Made by a program: the position numbers and the translations under genes
In this document: one piece after another, positions 56,304-63,904 of the stretch
Layout of the letters: each line of letters begins with the position of its first letter
Position numbering within the stretch: the first letter of the stretch is position 1
The notes under the pieces: model-generated
Databases searched by the model: none
Seen by the model: the letters and a program-made list of their open reading frames with translations, nothing else
What the model was told of the DNA's origin: nothing
From: a virus
Length of the DNA stretch: 64,000 bases
Direction: 5' to 3' (one strand)
Virus record (IMG/VR): IMGVR_UViG_3300017917_002938
Coordinates: 1-64,000 of that record

Positions 56304-56756
56304 TTAAAATGCAAATTTGACACCAGCATTTACTGAGCTACCATCAAAGCTGTCGATGCGAGATTGTCCTAGTTGATAGCGATAATCTGCTGTTAAAGCT
56401 ACTGATTTAGTAATTGAATAGCTTGCGCCAGCACCTACTAGCCAAGCATACCCATCAGAGCCTGTGCGGTTATTAATAAAACCTGCACCTCCCTTTGCGG
56501 TAAGTACGATAGGTCCTACTTTGGTAATATCTACAGTACCTAGAACGGAATATCGTTCTTGTTCGATACCACTGTTGCGAAATTGATCGTAAGCGAGCTC
56601 GAACCCAGTATCACCACTTTTCTTTCCGAGGGTAATACCAACAGATGATCTATCGGTTCCTGCGAAACGTTCTCCTCCGTTAATTCCTAGCTCGAATGCT
56701 GAAGCGGCCGTAGCGCTCAAAAACAAAATAGAAAAAATAGCCGTTTTAAACTTCAT
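56304..56756 (-). CDS. Outer-membrane beta-barrel protein (OmpA-TM/Ail/Lom-like, about 8 strands)
   Basis: Signal peptide MKFKTAIFSILFLSATAASA, alternating strands VGAGASYSIT..VALTADYRY, and terminal GVKFAF. The track's longer start overlaps the tmRNA. Confidence 0.85.
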   Translation of the reverse strand: MKFKTAIFSILFLSATAASAFELGINGGERFAGTDRSSVGITLGKKSGDTGFELAYDQFRNSGIEQERYSVLGTVDITKVGPIVLTAKGGAGFINNRTGSDGYAWLVGAGASYSITKSVALTADYRYQLGQSRIDSFDGSSVNAGVKFAF

Positions 56757-56779
56757 GAATAGCCTTTCAATGTTATGAT

Positions 56780-56822
56780 AAAAAGAGAAGTTTTTATTCT
56801 GTTGCCAAGTCAAAAACCTCTC
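56780..56822 (-). terminator. Hairpin + U-tract ending the tmRNA coding piece
   Basis: GAGAGGTTTTT..GCAA..AAAAACTTCTC followed by TTTTT. Confidence 0.55.
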
Positions 56823-57095
56823 CACAAAAAACTCCGGTCAGCGGTTAGGCTGCCAGTGCAAATCTTTCATCGTTTGCGTTTACTTTTTTTGCTTGATTTA
56901 CGGTCATCGCCTACCGTGTTGCCGTCTCTACTATCTACCCCTGTCGAAACCATGACTGGCCCATTAGAAAGAACTCTTTAGTATAGTCTGTAGCACTTGT
57001 CTGTCTCTATACAGGATGAAGAATTCTTTCTGGTGGACCAGGCGGGAGTCGAACCCGCGTCCAGAAGTCCTTCGCTTTGAAGGGATCACAACAAT
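56780..57095 (-). ncRNA. ssrA: Circularly permuted two-piece tmRNA
   Basis: Acceptor piece about 57095-57031 (GCGGGTTCGACTCCCGC CTGGTCC ACCA), spacer 57030-56963, coding piece from 56962 (GGGCCAGTCATGGTTTCGAC). G3-U70 and A73 present. Tag ANDERFALAA* at 56877-56845. Outer ends approximate. Confidence 0.92.
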
Positions 57096-57098
57096 TCT

Positions 57099-57308
57099 TT
57101 ACTTAGGTGCGCCGGTTGGCTCGGCCTTCTTGTGTGTTTTGATCTTCTTACACTCTTGAACTTTTTTCCCGTCCTTGCCTACGACAGGCTTACCATCTTT
57201 ACCTACTTTATCATGACATACTTCTTTAACTACTGCTTCTGCATGCACTGGTGCAATAGAAGTAACTAAAAATAGTGATAATGCAATGGTTGACAATTGT
57301 TTTAACAT
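57099..57308 (-). CDS. Small secreted Lys-rich protein with two Cys
   Basis: SD AGGAG, signal peptide ending VHA, repeated VGKDGK between two Cys. Confidence 0.75.
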   Translation of the reverse strand: MLKQLSTIALSLFLVTSIAPVHAEAVVKEVCHDKVGKDGKPVVGKDGKKVQECKKIKTHKKAEPTGAPK

Positions 57309-58986: not shown

Positions 58987-59598
58987 TTAAACCACGAATT
59001 CTGTGGTGTCGTTCTCACATGCCCATAGAGTGGCTATAATTTTAGTGCCTTTTATGACTTTTTCACCTGCATGAATAGTCATGTCATTTACTACTTGAAA
59101 AGGATAGTTATATTTGAAGACAAGCATGTCGCCTTTGGAAGGGAGAACTGCAAATTTTAGTTTACTGAATGACGTGGCCCCGCCTTCGTCGGGGGTGCGT
59201 AAGTAAACAATTGCAGTAGCTATACGCTGACCTTCTTTCTTGATGTTGGGGTTTTTTTCAATCACAGATTGATCGTAGAAGTCATAATGATTTTTGTACT
59301 CTTGACCTTCTTCGTATTTTGTGAGAGTAACCCTTTGCATGGTTTTTGTAGGTCTTCCTATAATCTTGGAAAACTTTCTATGCATGTAGTGAGAAATAAA
59401 ATCATTACGGTACATAAAAAAAGAGGAACTAGTTCTCCATGAAGGATCTAATTCACTTTCAGATGTATAGACATTAACTACTTTAGATTGTTTGAAGTAT
59501 TTGTCATACTTCCAGCAAACGAAGTCACAAAAAAAGCCGGAGAACGCTCCCTCGTAGAGCGTTACTTCCGGCATATCGTTCAGTATTTCTTTTTTCAT
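58987..59598 (-). CDS. Prolyl 4-hydroxylase-like 2OG-Fe(II) oxygenase
   Basis: YEEGQEYKNHYDF, GQRIATAIVYL..PDEGGATSF, PSKGDMLVF, HAGEKVIKGTKIIATLW. The track's start lies within a tRNA, so the ATG at 59598 is preferred. Confidence 0.88.
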   Translation of the reverse strand: MKKEILNDMPEVTLYEGAFSGFFCDFVCWKYDKYFKQSKVVNVYTSESELDPSWRTSSSFFMYRNDFISHYMHRKFSKIIGRPTKTMQRVTLTKYEEGQEYKNHYDFYDQSVIEKNPNIKKEGQRIATAIVYLRTPDEGGATSFSKLKFAVLPSKGDMLVFKYNYPFQVVNDMTIHAGEKVIKGTKIIATLWACENDTTEFVV

Positions 59599-59603
59599 GT
59601 TAG

Positions 59604-59678
59604 TGGTGGGCTGACTAGGAATTGAACCTAGACTCAATCGATTATGAGTCGACTGCTTTACCATTAAGCTATCAGCCC
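59604..59678 (-). tRNA. tRNA with CAT anticodon, probably Ile2 (lysidine type)
   Basis: GGGCTGA/TCAGCCC-A-CCA acceptor. The GTCGA-CTCATAA-TCGAT arm resembles Ile2, and initiator features are absent. Confidence 0.88.
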
Positions 59679-60337
59679 GTATTATTTAAAAGTTGATCGG
59701 TAAATTCTAATAGTAATTTATGTTGCCTGCCTTCATGATACAACCCTCTCATCCAGCTATGAATGGTGTACCAGTAACGTTGACTTTCTGGATGACAACC
59801 TATAAGGCCGATGTTGTTTTGAATTGCTGCCATAACATCACCATTCTTATACCTGGCAACAGTTTTAAACATGCTTTCGTTTCCTACTATAGCACAACCG
59901 TCAAAAAAGAACATCCTTTCTTTGTTACCGTTCCATTCAACTTCTATATTTTTTGCATGAGGGCGTCTTGTATCAGTTCCTGGTCTCCGTATATATTGAA
60001 CAGTATCGGCTTCTTTTAGTATATTAAAATAGTGCTTACCGGCCCAATATGCTCCCATACAAATGCCAAGGTACTTGCCTCCTCCGTTTACAAATTTCAT
60101 TACGTGATCGTGATTTTCTCTCATCAAGTAATCAAACGAATCGGAGGATCCTTCCCCTCCAGGAAAAATCACTACATCAACGTCATCAAAAAAATCATCC
60201 TCAACTTGATGTCGAGTAAATATTTTAAATTTGTAGTGTGGTGTAAGTGATTCTATTGTTCCGTTAACGCATTGTATGGAACACTTTGGATGATGTAAAA
60301 ATATTGCTGCCGTTGTGTGCTTGTATGTCAAAGACAT
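59672..60337 (-). CDS. Class I glutamine amidotransferase-like (BPL_N-type) protein
   Basis: [19 protein letters not shown] (nucleophile elbow), GCHPE. Confidence 0.82.
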
Positions 60338-60350
60338 AACCTCGTGTTGT

Positions 60351-60433
60351 TGGTACCCGAGACGGGATTCGAACCCGTACGCTTTTGGCGGGGGATTTTA
60401 AGTCCCCTGTGTCTACCGTTCCACCACCCGGGC
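60351..60433 (-). tRNA. tRNA-Leu(TAA)
   Basis: GGGGA-CTTAAAA-TCCCC arm, long variable arm, encoded CCA. Confidence 0.93.
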
Positions 60434-60438
60434 GACTA

Positions 60439-60657
60439 TTAATTGTTATTTTTCTTTACAAAATCTACAATCTTTTGAGCTTCTGTTAACACTGCCTCTA
60501 CAGTTGGTGGCTCTTCTTGGAAATCGGGACTAATCATTCCTGTCTGAGGGTTGCGAGTGCGTTCCATTTTGGAATAAAAAGACTGGTTTACTTGATCACG
60601 TGCAAGTTCTACCGCACGCACTACAAAATTAGACTCATTAGATTGATTGATAATCAT
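60439..60657 (-). CDS. Hypothetical protein
   Basis: SD AGGAG. C-terminal PTVEAVLTEAQKIVDFV motif. Confidence 0.75.
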   Translation of the reverse strand: MIINQSNESNFVVRAVELARDQVNQSFYSKMERTRNPQTGMISPDFQEEPPTVEAVLTEAQKIVDFVKKNNN

Positions 60658-60668
60658 TATAACTCCTA

Positions 60669-61325
60669 TTAACGAATTGTATATTGTCCGACAACTGCAC
60701 CAGGTTTTTGTAGTGTAGCATCGCGACGCTTCTTGTATTCCTCGTTGTCCACTTCAAGCAATTCAATTACACCATCAGAAGCACGAGACTGTTTATCTAG
60801 CTCTTTAAATTTCTTCTCTCTCAGCTCATTTCTAGAATTATTGTCAACGAGACGGCGGCTTTCATCGAGGGGGAGAGATAGGAGTACAAAAGCTCTATAA
60901 CCGTCTTTTTCTTTCGTTAGGAAAAGCTTTTCGCGTTTATACATTGAGAGTGATTGCTTAGTAACAATTTTAGAAACACGATCTACTTCCCTATCAATAC
61001 TTTTCATATCAGCAGTACCCTGTTCGTTTACTGACTCACGAATCATAGATTCTACTACTACGTTAACGCGATTGGCTAGTTCGACCCTGGCATTCATCAT
61101 TGCTTTGTCGATAGCAAATTGCATGTGTTTAGATACATCGGTTGCACTAACGTAGATCATTTTATCCGTAGTTAACGAGTCGTTGGTGTACCAATCAGGT
61201 ACCTCTCCTTTGAACTCAGCTACCGCTACCGTTTTTACTCCATCGGTAGTATTAGTTTTAAACGCTGAACATCCAGTCTCAAGAATACCAGCTGCGCACA
61301 GCAATAAAATTGTTAACATTCTCAT
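60669..61325 (-). CDS. Lipoprotein (LPP20-like)
   Basis: Signal peptide with lipobox-like TGC, VPDWY, AIDKAMMNARVELA. Confidence 0.75.
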   Translation of the reverse strand: MRMLTILLLCAAGILETGCSAFKTNTTDGVKTVAVAEFKGEVPDWYTNDSLTTDKMIYVSATDVSKHMQFAIDKAMMNARVELANRVNVVVESMIRESVNEQGTADMKSIDREVDRVSKIVTKQSLSMYKREKLFLTKEKDGYRAFVLLSLPLDESRRLVDNNSRNELREKKFKELDKQSRASDGVIELLEVDNEEYKKRRDATLQKPGAVVGQYTIR

Positions 61326-61334
61326 TTCACATCC

Positions 61335-62054
61335 TCATAGTCTAAAAATAGAATAATCCTTATAAACAACTCTTCGAGAGTACACCGGTAGAGTTTTAAT
61401 AAGCTCGTCCAAATGCTTCTTACTGATGTTATCGTAGTCGAAATTAAGCTTGGTCGACGTAAAAATAAACACCAATGTCTCTTTAGAGAAGTTAACGCCG
61501 TCTTTTAGTTTTGCTTCAATATGAATCGAGTTCAATTTATAAAAGTCGGAAGGAAAAATAAACTTACCGTTCACTACTCTATCCATATTATATTGAAGCG
61601 GATGAATTAAATCAACCCCATCTTTATAAACAGCAAAGACGTACATATGAACGGGTTGACGAGCATTAACGGTATACTCTACTATGTCACCGTTTTTAAA
61701 TTCACTCTTACCGTTTACTGTTACGTAGATTGATGCTGGATTATTTACTAAAACTTTCACTTCAGAATGACATATACCATTCCGTATGATTGTCTTTGAG
61801 GAAATTACTTTATTAATTTGACCCGCAGCATATGTCTCTGATTCTTTTTGATACTGACATGATGGGTCTTTGTTTTTAGTGTCTGCACAAACGTACGTTT
61901 CCACAGATTCAATAAGCATTCCGTTAGCTTGTTTAAGAGCGTGTTCAAATGCTTTTGACTCTGCAATTGCACAATTGTTATGTTCTCCCTTACCGTCATA
62001 TACCTGAGCGGTTACGACAGAAGGGAGAAGCAATGCTAGAAGTAATTTTTTCAT
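61335..62054 (-). CDS. Secreted protein, probable C-terminal DUF4384-like domain
   Basis: Signal peptide MKKLLLALLLPSVVTA. Contains GDIVEYTV..HMYVF..LIHP. Confidence 0.65.
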   Translation of the reverse strand: MKKLLLALLLPSVVTAQVYDGKGEHNNCAIAESKAFEHALKQANGMLIESVETYVCADTKNKDPSCQYQKESETYAAGQINKVISSKTIIRNGICHSEVKVLVNNPASIYVTVNGKSEFKNGDIVEYTVNARQPVHMYVFAVYKDGVDLIHPLQYNMDRVVNGKFIFPSDFYKLNSIHIEAKLKDGVNFSKETLVFIFTSTKLNFDYDNISKKHLDELIKTLPVYSRRVVYKDYSIFRL

Positions 62055-62060
62055 ACTAGT

Positions 62061-62089
62061 ATTGTAACGAAAATGAAAAAATAAAGCAA
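62061..62089 (-). promoter_or_regulatory. Sigma70-like promoter TTGCTT-N17-TACAAT (probably leaderless transcript)
   Basis: The -10 element ends 6 nt before the ATG at 62054. No SD. Confidence 0.7.
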
Positions 62090-62101
62090 CTAGTTTATGT
62101 C

Positions 62102-62176
62102 TGGCCCGGCGTGAGGGAATCGAACCCCCATTCGCACTTTAGAAGAATGCTGTCCTATCCATTGAACGAACGCCAG
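62102..62176 (-). tRNA. tRNA-Arg(TCT)
   Basis: GCATT-CTTCTAA-AGTGC arm, GGTTCGATTCC, CCA. Confidence 0.92.
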
Positions 62177-62185
62177 GTATTGTTA

Positions 62186-62656
62186 TTATGCTGCTTTCAG
62201 AGATTTAAATCTATCGGCTGCATATGAGGCTGCGAAAGCTTCTGGTTTAACCAAAGGTACAACATTACATGTACCACGAATGTATCCAATAGCTTCATTC
62301 ACCACGCATGATGATCCGTGCATTTCGTTAGGGTTGATGTCAAGATGAACTTGAACATCTCTGCCTTCTAGTACATCAGCAAGCTTCAAATACAATTCAC
62401 TAACCTTATACACCTCATTCATTAGACGGTAACGTGGGCGATTAAACTTTTGATCGTAGTCACGTTCTTTTTGAATTTCACCAAATAGTTTACAACCGTT
62501 ATTACCGTTGATGTGAACGACAATAGCTAGAATGTAATCCGCCCACCATTCCTTACCAACTTTATATCTCTCAGAGTCACAACCAATATAGATTTTTGTT
62601 TCTGGAGATTGCGCCTGAATGAATTCTTTTACTTCTTCTAGATCAAGCTTACGCAT
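62186..62656 (-). CDS. RNase H-like YkuK (DUF458) family protein
   Basis: IYIGCDS, RLMNEV, VHLDIN, KPEAFAASYAADR. Confidence 0.88.
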   Translation of the reverse strand: MRKLDLEEVKEFIQAQSPETKIYIGCDSERYKVGKEWWADYILAIVVHINGNNGCKLFGEIQKERDYDQKFNRPRYRLMNEVYKVSELYLKLADVLEGRDVQVHLDINPNEMHGSSCVVNEAIGYIRGTCNVVPLVKPEAFAASYAADRFKSLKAA

Positions 62657-62671
62657 AGTACTACCTTTCTA

Positions 62672-62745
62672 TGGCACCCCGAGAGGGATTCGAACCCCCA
62701 CCAACGGTTTTGGAGACCGCAATGCTGCCGTTACACCATCGAGAT
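62672..62745 (-). tRNA. tRNA-Trp(CCA)
   Basis: GCGGT-CTCCAAA-ACCGT arm, G73, CCA. Confidence 0.92.
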
Positions 62746-62762
62746 ACGTTTTTTATTTAGGG

Positions 62763-63016
62763 TGAGGATATGAGTTTGATCCGGCAACGAAGCCGCTTAG
62801 CAATATGCAATTAGCAATATGCAATAAGCAGACCACAAAGCATAGGATTCCGTTTATCAACAAGCAGCGACTTTCGTCTTGTATGGAACGGAGCAACAAG
62901 CATGGGTTGGTCGGGATTGATCGGATTCGGGTTAACAAGGCCCAAACCTAGCTAGTAAGACATTTCAAGTGTCAACTAGATTGCAACAACGCCCCCTTCA
63001 CTCCCCCATACCCTCA
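62763..63016 (-). ncRNA. Candidate structured ncRNA (about 250 nt)
   Basis: A 12-bp closing helix TGAGGGTATGGG/CTCATATCCTCA (with G-U pairs on the minus strand), several internal hairpins including GAC-GAAA-GTC, and repeated (G)CTTGTT/ATTGC motifs. Confidence 0.65.
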
Positions 63017-63021
63017 AAACT

Positions 63022-63603
63022 TTATAGAATACCTTCCGCTTTAAGAGTCTGAACGGTTAGTTCAGACAATGTAATCAAGGTATTGACATTGAGTTGTAAG
63101 AGTTTATCTTGCAGCTCTTGACGATCACGCTTGAGGTTTCTAACTGCATTTTTTGCAGCGTCAATATCTGATTGCAACACTACGCTGGTTTCAACGTTGT
63201 TAAAACGGTCACCGTAAATGGATGCACGCGCAGAATCGGAAGGTTGTTCTTTGAACTTTTGAATTCGTGCACTGATTTCAATCTGACTCTTACGAGGTTT
63301 GAGACCTGCAATCACACTATGTACGGCCATAGAAGCGTCTGTAGCTTCTACTTCTGCTAAGATAGTGTTAATGTCAGCATCAGCATTAGCCTTACCTACG
63401 CGTTTACGAATGTCGTACATTGCGTTGATAAGTGATAGTTTACGAGTAACTGTATCGTTTAACTCTGCACGGTTTTTGGTAAGAGTATCTTCTACCCCAT
63501 CTGTAAACTCAGATACCTGAGTCTCAGATTCAAATTTTATTCCGTTAATAGTTTTACGAATCTCGGCTTGAATTGCATTAGCTTTACGTAGATTAACTTG
63601 CAT
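63022..63603 (-). CDS. Long coiled-coil protein (tentatively DIP1984/DUF6847-like)
   Basis: SD GAAAGGA before the ATG at 63603. MQVNLRKANAIQAEI...LQDKLLQLNVNTLITL. Confidence 0.75.
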   Translation of the reverse strand: MQVNLRKANAIQAEIRKTINGIKFESETQVSEFTDGVEDTLTKNRAELNDTVTRKLSLINAMYDIRKRVGKANADADINTILAEVEATDASMAVHSVIAGLKPRKSQIEISARIQKFKEQPSDSARASIYGDRFNNVETSVVLQSDIDAAKNAVRNLKRDRQELQDKLLQLNVNTLITLSELTVQTLKAEGIL

Positions 63604-63628
63604 GTTATTTCCTTTCAATCAATAATGT

Positions 63629-63657
63629 ATTCTATATGAATTTTTTAATAAGATCAA
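63629..63657 (-). promoter_or_regulatory. Sigma70-like early promoter TTGATC-N17-TAGAAT
   Basis: Read directly. Same architecture as three others in the region. Confidence 0.7.
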
Positions 63658-63659
63658 CT

Positions 63660-63735
63660 TGGTGCTGCCTCGTGGGATCGAACCACGTTCCTCGGTTCTT
63701 CAGACCGGTGCTATGACCACATCAGCTAAAGCAGC
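63660..63735 (-). tRNA. tRNA-Phe(GAA)
   Basis: Loop CTGAAGA, acceptor GCTGCTT/AGGCAGC-A-CCA. Confidence 0.9.
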
Positions 63736-63742
63736 ATTAAAT

Positions 63743-63817
63743 TGGTACCTGGTCACGGTTTCGAACCGCGGACCCTCTCCTTGTAAGGGAGACGCTCTAC
63801 CCCTGAGCTAACCAGGC
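63743..63817 (-). tRNA. tRNA-Val(TAC)
   Basis: TCTCC-CTTACAA-GGAGA arm, CCA. Confidence 0.93.
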
Positions 63818-63828
63818 ATAATTCTCTT

Positions 63829-63904
63829 TGGGGTACTATAAGAGGATCGAACTCTTACTATCTCGGTCACAGCGAGAGGTGCAGACCACTACACTAATAG
63901 TACC
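63829..63904 (-). tRNA. tRNA-His(GTG)
   Basis: TCTCG-CTGTGAC-CGAGA arm, G-1:C73 pair, CCA. Confidence 0.92.

What the first reader, a model, noticed from the sequence alone, without database searches (positions are those of the whole stretch)
56780..57095. Phage-borne circularly permuted (two-piece) tmRNA with a betaproteobacterial-type tag
Seen: the T-arm/CCA half lies upstream of the 5' half. The 68-nt spacer is closed by a 12-bp helix (GAAAGAATTCTT/AAGAGTTCTTTC). The Ala identity elements G3-U70/A73 and the tag ANDERFALAA are intact, and the RNA ends about 65 nt after the tag, so most pseudoknots are lost. Established: permuted tmRNAs are known from alphaproteobacteria, some cyanobacteria and a few betaproteobacteria, and ANDER(F/Y)ALAA-type tags are typical of Burkholderiales. 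Inference: the host is betaproteobacterial, and the phage supplies its own compact, possibly nuclease-resistant ribosome-rescue RNA. It may represent an independent permutation lineage. No smpB gene is present in this window.
Basis: partly seen in the sequence, partly recalled or inferred. Interest (0 to 1): 0.75.

Follow-up and report, generated by a model that had tools for sequence, protein, structure and literature searches.

The report
Phage two-piece tmRNA, beta type
An uncultured T4-like phage carries a real, intact, circularly permuted ribosome-rescue RNA (tmRNA); this kind of phage gene is already published, but this copy belongs to a large phage-carried branch of the "betaproteobacterial" type, so it does not by itself name the host.

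Summary
On the minus strand, about 57093-56780, lies a permuted tmRNA gene. It has an acceptor piece ending in an encoded CCA, a 68-nt intervening segment closed by a 12-bp helix, and a coding piece with G3·U70, A73 and the tag ANDERFALAA, followed by a terminator about 65 nt after the stop codon. ARAGORN and Rfam both call it (beta_tmRNA 154.6 bits; alpha 51, cyano 37, standard 37).

The record is a 163.5-kb T4-like phage with 29 tRNA genes, no smpB and no integrase.

Across 86 related viral genes every helix covaries, including the inter-piece helix, the spacer stem and pseudoknot 1.

- It is not an independent permutation. Phage and bacterial beta-type genes form one clade against standard tmRNAs (100/100).
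- It is not a recent host capture. The gene sits in a phage clade (97% identity to a viral relative, 73.5% to the best bacterial gene).
- Host inference is weak. Cultured Pseudomonas and Xanthomonas phages carry the same type.

Phage two-piece tmRNAs were published in 2022, and this scan had already flagged look-alikes in many other phage genomes. Verdict: a new member of a known kind.

The parts
57031..57093 (-). Acceptor piece. It holds the 5' strand of the inter-piece helix P2 (UGUUG 57093-57089 ... ACUUCUG 57068-57062), the T-arm (57058-57042), the acceptor 3' strand CUGGUCC (57041-57035), discriminator A73 (57034) and an encoded CCA (57033-57031). The true 5' end is not determined.
   Evidence: Rfam alignments. 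Landmarks located. T-arm and P2 covariation across 86 genes.
56963..57030 (-). Intervening segment of 68 nt, removed on maturation. A 12-bp closure helix (57030-57019 with 56978-56967) is followed by the 4-nt leader UAAU (56966-56963) directly before G1.
   Evidence: length, sequence. Family-wide, the helix starts 0-2 nt after the CCA and ends 4-6 nt before G1. All 12 pairs covary and 83.8% of cells are paired. The leader is UGAU in 87 and UAAU in 17 of 112 viral genes.
56780..56962 (-). Coding piece. It holds the acceptor 5' strand GGGCCAG (56962-56956), the UGGUUUCGAC D-loop analogue, the P2 3' strand (CAGGGGU 56943-56937 ... GGCAACA 56923-56917), pseudoknot PK1 (about 56916-56891), the tag frame, a helix-5-like hairpin and the terminator.
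56845..56877 (-). Tag reading frame GCA AAC GAU GAA AGA UUU GCA CUG GCA GCC UAA, encoding ANDERFALAA plus a stop. The resume codon GCA is preceded by GUAAAC (U at -5, A at -4).
   Evidence: ARAGORN. Translation.
56834..56856 (-). Helix-5-like hairpin (8 bp with one bulge) that presents the UAA stop codon in its loop.
   Evidence: Minimum-free-energy fold.
56780..56823 (-). Terminal hairpin (13 bp, 56823-56784) followed by a U-run (56783-56780), probably an intrinsic terminator. Its loop carries a motif (…GGCAACAGAAU) conserved in the viral family.
   Evidence: Fold: -31.5 kcal/mol, z = -3.2. Conserved columns in alignment A1.
59604..63903 (-). The first 7 of 29 phage tRNA genes. The array runs to 68299 in the full record. 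It is on the same strand as the tmRNA and about 2.5 kb upstream of it in the direction of transcription.
57099..57308 (-). Upstream 69-codon ORF with a signal-peptide-like N-terminus. Its stop codon lies about 6 nt before the acceptor piece, so the tmRNA has no room for a promoter of its own there.
   Evidence: No Pfam hit.
56304..56759 (-). Downstream gene for a small outer-membrane beta-barrel-like protein. The real start is the ATG at 56759-56757, which opens a signal peptide. The longer GTG-started ORF that overlaps the tmRNA tail is an artefact of mechanical ORF listing.
   Evidence: Pfam YfaZ/porin/OmpA-like matches; only YfaZ (26.1 bits) passes its curated cut-off.

Best explanation
This is a functional two-piece (circularly permuted) tmRNA gene of a T4-like phage.

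Proposed mechanism:
- It is transcribed as one precursor, probably together with the upstream genes on the same strand.
- The intervening hairpin is cut out: by host RNase P at G1, after the 4-nt leader, and by host 3'-end processing back to the encoded CCA.
- The two pieces stay together through the acceptor stem and helix P2.
- Host alanyl-tRNA synthetase charges the RNA (G3·U70, A73), and host SmpB and EF-Tu deliver it to ribosomes stalled on broken mRNAs.
- Translation resumes on GCA and adds ANDERFALAA, a degradation tag that ends in the ClpXP-type LAA.

The likely benefit is to keep ribosomes free during infection. At that time host transcription, and so host tmRNA supply, is shut down and mRNA cleavage is heavy. 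This parallels the phage's own set of 29 tRNAs.

Shown here: the gene's anatomy, family membership, purifying selection on every helix and on the tag's ends, its phage context, and its descent within a phage-carried clade.

Inferred: transcription, cutting into two pieces, charging, use of host SmpB, tagging activity and the fitness benefit.
For: - Detection by two independent programs.
- Exact anatomy.
- Across 86 unique viral homologues, 95.4% of 4294 structure cells pair (slid controls 41-51%). 31 of 50 pairs show changes on both sides, and 0 of 500 shuffles reach the observed values.
- G3·U70 and A73 are invariant, while acceptor positions 4-6 and the T-stem covary.
- The inter-piece helix P2 covaries: CAUUCUG/CAGGGUG versus ACUUCUG/CAGGGGU.
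- Both stems of PK1 covary.
- 75 different tags nearly all start with A and end in xAA.
- U-A at -5/-4 before the resume codon matches the frame-setting position known from E. coli tmRNA (established knowledge).
- The stop codon sits in the loop of a helix-5-like hairpin, and a strong terminator follows.
- Phage context: T4-type gp6, gp48 and gp32, 29 tRNAs, and conserved neighbours in 33-59 of 145 related loci.
- No smpB, so the RNA must depend on the host protein.
- Published precedent: phage-encoded two-piece tmRNAs, PMC9004378.
Against: - There is no expression or processing data.
- No convincing promoter lies directly upstream.
- The helix abutting the CCA could hinder exonucleolytic 3' trimming, so the route to the mature 3' end is unclear.
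- The host, and therefore the match between this tag and the host's proteases and adaptors, is unknown.
Confidence: 0.8

Rival explanations
1. The gene is a recently captured host ssrA, or host DNA mis-assembled into the phage contig, so it reports the host's own tmRNA.
For: The tag ANDERFALAA is identical to that of 20 bacterial beta-type genes and of one one-piece tmRNA (L069). tmRNA genes are common prophage integration sites (PMC4383910, listed).
Against: - The mature parts are 97% identical to viral relatives but only 73.5% identical to the best bacterial gene.
- The gene sits deep inside the viral side of a 100%-supported split.
- It has all the phage-type traits: encoded CCA, long spacer, AGAUA core.
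- The flanking genes are shared with many related phage loci.
- There is no integrase.
- The phage-type core occurs in 2 of 185,579 species genomes. Both hits are small MAG contigs whose MAGs have their own standard tmRNA elsewhere.
Confidence: 0.03
2. The phage RNA is an independently permuted tmRNA lineage.
For: The viral clade differs from bacterial beta genes in several traits: an encoded CCA, a spacer 3-10 times longer, a distinct P2 core, and half the family score.
Against: - The full-length match to the beta model is 154.6 bits, against 51.2 for alpha and 36.7 for cyano.
- Both groups share the same spacer geometry, a hairpin straight after ACC(A) and a 4-nt leader before G1.
- Viral and bacterial permuted genes form one clade against 27 standard tmRNAs, 100/100 support, branch length 0.56.
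Confidence: 0.03
3. The RNA mainly acts as a decoy that soaks up host SmpB or blocks host trans-translation, as proposed for the tRNA-like-domain-only gene of mycobacteriophage DS6A, and does not act as a working rescue RNA.
For: The phage has no smpB. A domain-only phage tmRNA that inhibits the host system has been reported (PMC4131195; PMC11915505).
Against: A decoy would not need the tag frame, the resume-codon context, PK1 or the helix-5 hairpin, yet all are conserved or covary across the family. Tags keep their degradation-signal ends.
Confidence: 0.07
4. [quoted passage not shown] General ribosome rescue would then be secondary.
For: Buchholz et al. suggested this for phage Melnitz. Tags in the family are unusually diverse, including conserved 22-33-residue tags, which hints at selection on the peptide beyond a minimal degradation signal.
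Against: The window's own tag is an ordinary 10-residue proteobacterial-type tag. tmRNA acts only on stalled ribosomes, so it cannot pick out host proteins by itself.
Confidence: 0.1

Closest known systems
Bacterial betaproteobacterial two-piece tmRNA (Rfam RF01850; Sharkady and Williams 2004, cited in PMC11915505)
   Same: Same gene order: acceptor piece, spacer hairpin, 4-nt leader, coding piece. Same helices (acceptor, T-arm, P2, PK1, helix 5, terminal hairpin) and same loss of PK2-4. The tag is identical to a common bacterial one. The two form one clade against standard tmRNAs.
   Different: - Score: 154.6 bits against 273-317 for bacterial members.
- 3' end: the CCA is fully encoded, whereas bacterial genes end ACC(C/U) in 64 of 65.
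- Spacer: 68 nt against a median of 25.
- P2 core: GUAGAUAGUAGAGAC in place of CGGGCAAAGGUG.
- Acceptor stem: it varies and covaries in phages and is nearly invariant in bacteria.
- Promoter: there is none directly in front.
Phage-encoded two-piece tmRNAs already reported (Buchholz et al. 2022, PMC9004378: Melnitz, pelagimyophages, phiCbK-like, cyanophages and others; 53 permuted forms among 18,146 phage genomes)
   Same: A permuted tmRNA in a large lytic phage, often T4-like and aquatic, without smpB. The same functional proposals apply.
   Different: Melnitz carries an alpha-type gene under a glutamine riboswitch. This gene is beta type, and Rfam found no riboswitch next to it. The paper did not describe the breadth of the viral beta-type clade (more than 120 viral contigs) or its separation from bacterial genes, as far as I could read.
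Unannotated permuted tmRNAs of cultured phages Pseudomonas PA_L9, Xanthomonas XacN1 and JGB6
   Same: Beta type by Rfam (95-108 bits). They have an encoded CCA, a long spacer closed by a stem that starts right after the CCA, a UGAU leader, and tags that end in AA. XacN1 also has the AGAUAGUGGAGA core.
   Different: They are more divergent: only the acceptor piece is found by blastn, at 77-87% identity. Tags have 12-14 residues. The phages are of different types (Samunavirus; a 385-kb jumbo phage).
Standard one-piece tmRNA (Rfam RF00023, e.g. E. coli SsrA)
   Same: The same tRNA-like domain, alanine identity, resume-codon context, PK1 and an ANDxxxALAA-type tag.
   Different: The gene is circularly permuted and PK2-4 are missing. 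The standard model scores only 36.8 bits, below its cut-off.

Membership tests
tmRNA (any form) | tRNA-like domain: a 7-bp acceptor stem with G3·U70, discriminator A73, a CCA end and a T-arm | tested here: met
   GGGCCAG/CUGGUCC pairs 7/7, with G3·U70, A73 and an encoded CCA. T-arm is GCGGG-UUCGACU-CCCGC. These elements are invariant or covarying in 86 homologues.
tmRNA (any form) | Internal tag reading frame that starts at an alanine resume codon, ends in a stop codon and encodes a degradation tag | tested here: met
   GCA...UAA encodes ANDERFALAA. Family tags nearly all start with A and end in xAA.
tmRNA (any form) | Pseudoknot PK1 upstream of the resume codon | tested here: met
   S1 (CGGU/ACCG) and the crossing S2 covary. 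All 8 pairs show changes on both sides, with 92-100% of cells paired.
tmRNA (any form) | Works with SmpB; charged by AlaRS; adds the tag to stalled peptides | not testable with these tools
   There is no smpB in the 163.5-kb record, so host SmpB would be needed. No biochemical data exist.
Permuted (two-piece) tmRNA, Rfam RF04321 | The acceptor (3') piece is encoded upstream of the coding (5') piece, with an intervening segment; the score is above the cut-off | tested here: met
   146.1 bits against a cut-off of 47. ARAGORN marks the gene as permuted. The spacer is 68 nt.
Permuted (two-piece) tmRNA, Rfam RF04321 | The mature RNA consists of two separate pieces held together by base pairing | not testable with these tools
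   Pairing between the pieces (acceptor stem, P2) is supported by covariation. The cleavage itself could not be observed.
Rfam RF01850 beta_tmRNA | Full-length match above the gathering score, and better than the alpha and cyano models | tested here: met
   Beta 154.6 bits (cut-off 84), alpha 51.2, cyano 36.7, standard 36.8.
Bacterial subclade of the beta type (chromosomal ssrA of high-GC Betaproteobacteria) | Groups with chromosomal genes; core CGGGCAAAGGUG; 3' end ACC(C/U); spacer of about 25 nt | tested here: not met
   The window's gene falls on the viral side of a 100%-supported split. It is 73.5% identical to the best bacterial gene, and all three traits differ.
Rfam RF01849 alpha_tmRNA | The best-scoring permuted model is alpha | tested here: not met
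   51.2 bits, barely over the cut-off of 50 and a third of the beta score.
Rfam RF01851 cyano_tmRNA | Score above the gathering cut-off | tested here: not met
   36.7 bits against a cut-off of 70, and only the T-arm region matches.

The most novel reading that the evidence does not exclude
The so-called betaproteobacterial two-piece tmRNA is at root a phage gene family. Under this reading, a diverse permuted tmRNA lineage is carried and exchanged by large phages of many Proteobacteria, and the rare chromosomal beta-type ssrA (594 of 183,138 Pseudomonadota genomes) arose when such a phage gene replaced a host's standard ssrA.

The same phage lineage would also explain the stray 'beta-permuted' tmRNAs reported in archaeal, Bacteroidota, Bacillota and Patescibacteria MAGs.

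In the outgroup-rooted tree the bacterial clade is nested inside viral diversity. The data do not reject the opposite arrangement (AU p = 0.47).
Probability: 0.22. Interest if true: 0.7.

Novelty: new member of a known kind. Interest (0 to 1): 0.38.

Why it matters
For this window, the result is a clean annotation of a working-looking ribosome-rescue RNA in a phage that also carries 29 tRNAs. It adds to the picture of large phages bringing their own translation-maintenance RNAs.

It also carries a practical warning: the type of a phage's tmRNA, or its tag, should not be used alone to predict the host.

At the family level three points may be useful to specialists:
- Phage beta-type genes form their own clade with recognisable traits: an encoded CCA, a long spacer closed by a stem, a U(G/A)AU leader and an AGAUA core.
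- Cultured Pseudomonas and Xanthomonas phages carry unannotated members, so the function can be tested by ordinary genetics.
- Mis-binned phage contigs are a likely source of the odd permuted tmRNAs seen in MAGs of unrelated phyla.

Tried and rejected
- Bacterial beta-type genes by sampling genomes: RF01850 on 151 class-level genomes and a P2 pattern on 401 found only the MAG's own phage contig. The form is too rare for sampling (0.3% of Pseudomonadota genomes). A metagenome pattern scan solved this.
- The founding paper on the beta lineage (PMC516066) is not held, so its description of pseudoknots and taxa could not be checked.
- A literature search for the exact tag found no paper.
The only leads are indirect: earlier notes call this a freshwater-lake phage with pqqA, and Baikal T4-like pqqA phages were predicted to infect Methylophilaceae (PMC7678222). 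I do not rest any claim on this.
- Integration-site remnant: rejected, because the gene is complete and there is no integrase.
- Promoter: the consensus scan gave only weak sites, one inside the upstream ORF and one inside the spacer, at about chance level.
- Direction of transfer between phages and bacteria: the AU test does not reject viral monophyly (p = 0.466), so this stays open.
- A possible alternative pairing of the conserved terminal-loop motif with the acceptor piece was considered by eye and not pursued.

Full report
**1. What is in the sequence**

The finding lies on the minus strand. ARAGORN reports a permuted tmRNA at 56754-57123 with the tag ANDERFALAA. Rfam's covariance models report beta_tmRNA (RF01850) at 154.6 bits over the whole model (cut-off 84) and the general permuted model (RF04321) at 146.1 bits.

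Reading the strand gives this order:
- the 5' strand of helix P2, starting UGUUG at 57093;
- the T-arm (57058-57042);
- the acceptor 3' strand CUGGUCC, A73, and an encoded CCA ending at 57031;
- G1 at 56962 (GGGCCAG, giving G3·U70), then the UGGUUUCGAC element and the P2 3' strand;
- a small pseudoknot;
- the tag frame 56877-56845;
- a hairpin holding the UAA stop codon in its loop;
- a 13-bp terminal hairpin with a U-run ending near 56780.

**2. Is it phage DNA?**

The window is the first 64 kb of a 163,543-bp virus record rated 93% complete. Window proteins match T4-type families:
- baseplate wedge gp6 (E = 9e-156);
- tail-tube cap gp48;
- single-strand-binding protein gp32 (E = 8e-121).

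The nearest cultured phages by gp6 are only about 40% identical (Caulobacter Cr30, Sinorhizobium phiM12 group). The record has 29 tRNA genes in one array on the same strand, 2.5 kb upstream of the tmRNA. It has no SmpB and no tyrosine integrase. The gene is tightly packed between two small secreted-protein genes. It is therefore a gene of a lytic-type T4-like phage, not a prophage edge.

**3. Relatives and selection**

A 34-nt stretch of the coding piece occurs exactly in 51 viral contigs. From these I recovered 112 complete genes, 97 of them unique.

In all complete genes the two pieces form a perfect 7-bp acceptor stem. G1-C72, G2-C71, G3·U70 and A73 are fixed, and the remaining positions covary.

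On an alignment of 86 unique genes (A1) I wrote out an explicit structure and counted pairs:
- 95.4% of cells pair, against 41-51% when the partners are slid.
- 31 of 50 pairs show changes on both sides.
- The covariation score is 0.375, against 0.072 or less in the slid controls.
- No shuffle out of 500 reaches the observed values.

Support holds for each helix separately: both parts of the inter-piece helix P2, the T-arm, the acceptor stem, both stems of PK1, and the spacer's closure helix. That last helix has no conserved sequence, yet all 12 of its pairs covary.

The closure helix starts 0-2 nt after the CCA and ends 4-6 nt before G1 in nearly every gene, although the spacer ranges from 56 to 256 nt. 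The 4-nt leader is UGAU or UAAU in 104 of 112 genes. This geometry looks like a processing signal. That reading is an inference.

Two caveats apply. The structure was derived from one of the aligned sequences, and the sequences are related. The slid controls and the many pair types argue that the signal is real.

**4. Is it a separate permutation, or a captured host gene?**

It is neither.

The other models score far lower on this gene: alpha 51.2, cyano 36.7, standard 36.8 bits.

To obtain real bacterial beta-type genes I scanned metagenome contigs with the Rfam-consensus version of P2. Sixty-five of the parsed contigs have 51-70% GC. Some are 160-690 kb long, and one is flanked by metH and argC.

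| Trait | Bacterial beta-type genes | Viral genes |
|---|---|---|
| RF01850 score | 273-317 bits | 131-165 bits (cultured-phage copies 95-108) |
| Acceptor stem | nearly invariant | 10 variants |
| 3' end | ACC(C/U) in 64 of 65; final A not encoded | CCA encoded in 115 of 123 |
| Spacer | median 25 nt | median 82 nt |
| P2 core | CGGGCAAAGGUG | AGAUA…GAGA motif |

The bacterial spacer still forms a small hairpin directly after ACC and leaves a 4-nt leader. This is the same architecture as in the phages, only smaller.

A maximum-likelihood tree of the mature parts splits the 41 bacterial genes (plus one IMG/VR contig, L100, which scores like the bacterial genes) from 108 viral or low-GC genes with 100% SH-aLRT support. 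The window's gene is nested in the viral side. It is 97% identical to L051 and only 73.5% identical to the best bacterial gene.

When 27 standard tmRNAs are added, with their segments put in the same order, all permuted genes form one clade with 100/100 support. The phage genes and the bacterial beta genes therefore share one permutation event.

One of the 27 outgroup rows (L087) comes from genome G143, which is flagged as unpublished. The result does not depend on that row. No other claim rests on G143 or G041.

**5. Host**

The exact tag ANDERFALAA is encoded by 20 of the bacterial beta-type genes and by one high-GC one-piece tmRNA (L069).

The tag cannot carry a host call, for four reasons:
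- The window's closest relatives by tRNA-like domain have quite different, long tags.
- The family has 75 different tags.
- Cultured phages of Pseudomonas aeruginosa (PA_L9) and Xanthomonas (XacN1, JGB6) carry beta-type permuted tmRNAs with the same phage-type traits, although those hosts use standard one-piece tmRNA (established knowledge).
- The phage-type core is found in only 2 of 185,579 species genomes. Both hits are small MAG contigs ('Bifidobacterium', 'Alteromonadales') whose MAGs have their own standard tmRNA elsewhere, and one of the two (L053) also carries homologues of this phage's genes.

Low GC (38%) does not exclude a high-GC host either. From my own knowledge, Caulobacter phage Cr30, the nearest cultured phage by gp6, is also far below its host in GC content.

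Indirect leads point to freshwater Methylophilaceae. I did not test them.

**6. Mechanism**

The best-supported reading is an ordinary trans-translation RNA supplied by the phage and run by host factors: RNase P, 3'-end processing enzymes, AlaRS, SmpB, EF-Tu and ClpXP-type proteases. Selection on the tag frame, the resume-codon context, PK1 and helix 5 argues against a pure SmpB decoy. The benefit, keeping ribosomes free when host RNA synthesis is shut off and mRNAs are being cut, is inferred by analogy with the phage's tRNA set and with published proposals.

**7. Novelty**

Phage-encoded two-piece tmRNAs are published. Buchholz et al. 2022 counted 53 among 18,146 phage genomes and discussed one in a T4-like methylophage. 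This scan had also flagged look-alikes in 112 windows of 73 genomes. The finding is therefore a new member of a known kind.

I did not find the following stated in the papers I could read:
- the separation of a phage-carried beta-type clade from the chromosomal one;
- its defining traits;
- its presence, unannotated, in cultured Pseudomonas and Xanthomonas phages;
- its likely role in the sporadic 'beta-permuted' tmRNAs of archaeal and other MAGs, which the 2025 tmRNA database paper put down to mis-binned bacterial contigs.

In the outgroup-rooted tree the bacterial clade sits inside a grade of viral genes. The AU test does not reject viral monophyly (p = 0.466), so the direction of transfer stays open.

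Noticed in passing
L006, L011, L014, L020, L030, L031, L032, L034, L036, L049-L051 and others (viral loci): Many phage permuted tmRNAs encode long tags of 22-33 residues with a conserved pattern (for example ANADTFDFSAMSFTGNTV…RFALAA, ANASTFEYFTVEGFTADNGLVAA). These are two to three times the usual length. They still start AN/AK and end in xAA.
   Followed up: partly
L014:2853-2926, L020:8175-8248, L027:8093-8168, L032:8167-8240, L040:8151-8224, L053:2944-3018: Several long-tag loci carry a tRNA with anticodon CUA (an amber suppressor, listed by ARAGORN as tRNA-Pyl) within a few kb of the tmRNA. This could mean those phages read TAG as a sense codon.
   Followed up: no
window 56796-56811 (loop of the terminal hairpin); same position in alignment A1; L182 (PA_L9): The loop of the terminal hairpin carries a motif (C-Y-U-N-G-N-A-A-C-A-G-A-A-U; GGCAACAGAAU in the window) that is conserved in much of the viral family and recognisable in Pseudomonas phage PA_L9. 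Bacterial beta genes have a plain UCGG-type terminator instead. It repeats the GGCAACA of the P2 strand, and its function is unknown.
   Followed up: no
L182 (PP869205.1 80285-80720), L183 (AP018399.1 37177-37620), L184 (OQ436456.1 52670-53085), approximate: The permuted tmRNA genes of the cultured phages PA_L9, XacN1 and JGB6 are not annotated at these places. The records show hypothetical proteins or nothing under them.
   Followed up: partly
L053 (CAZCDW010000126.1) and L054 (CALMJT010000228.1): Contigs binned into a 'Bifidobacterium' MAG and an 'Alteromonadales' MAG carry phage-type permuted tmRNAs. L053 also has homologues of this phage's genes. Both MAGs have their own standard tmRNA on another contig, so these look like mis-binned phage contigs.
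   Followed up: yes
window 56304-56759 (-) and 57099-57308 (-): The tmRNA is flanked by two small genes with signal peptides: a 151-residue outer-membrane beta-barrel-like protein (YfaZ/porin/OmpA-like matches, only YfaZ above its curated cut-off) and a 69-residue protein of no known family. The barrel gene recurs next to the tmRNA in 12 related loci.
   Followed up: partly
L021, L022, L111, L126, L170 and others, intervening segments (alignment A1 columns 67-100): Some intervening segments contain a ribosome-binding-site-like AGGAG followed by ATG and a short open frame. The window's own spacer has no ATG.
   Followed up: no
window 58987-59664 (-), 59672-60337 (-), 62186-62656 (-): Protein genes sit between the tRNA genes: a 2OG-Fe(II) oxygenase, a glutamine-amidotransferase-like protein and an RNase H-like protein.
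   Followed up: no
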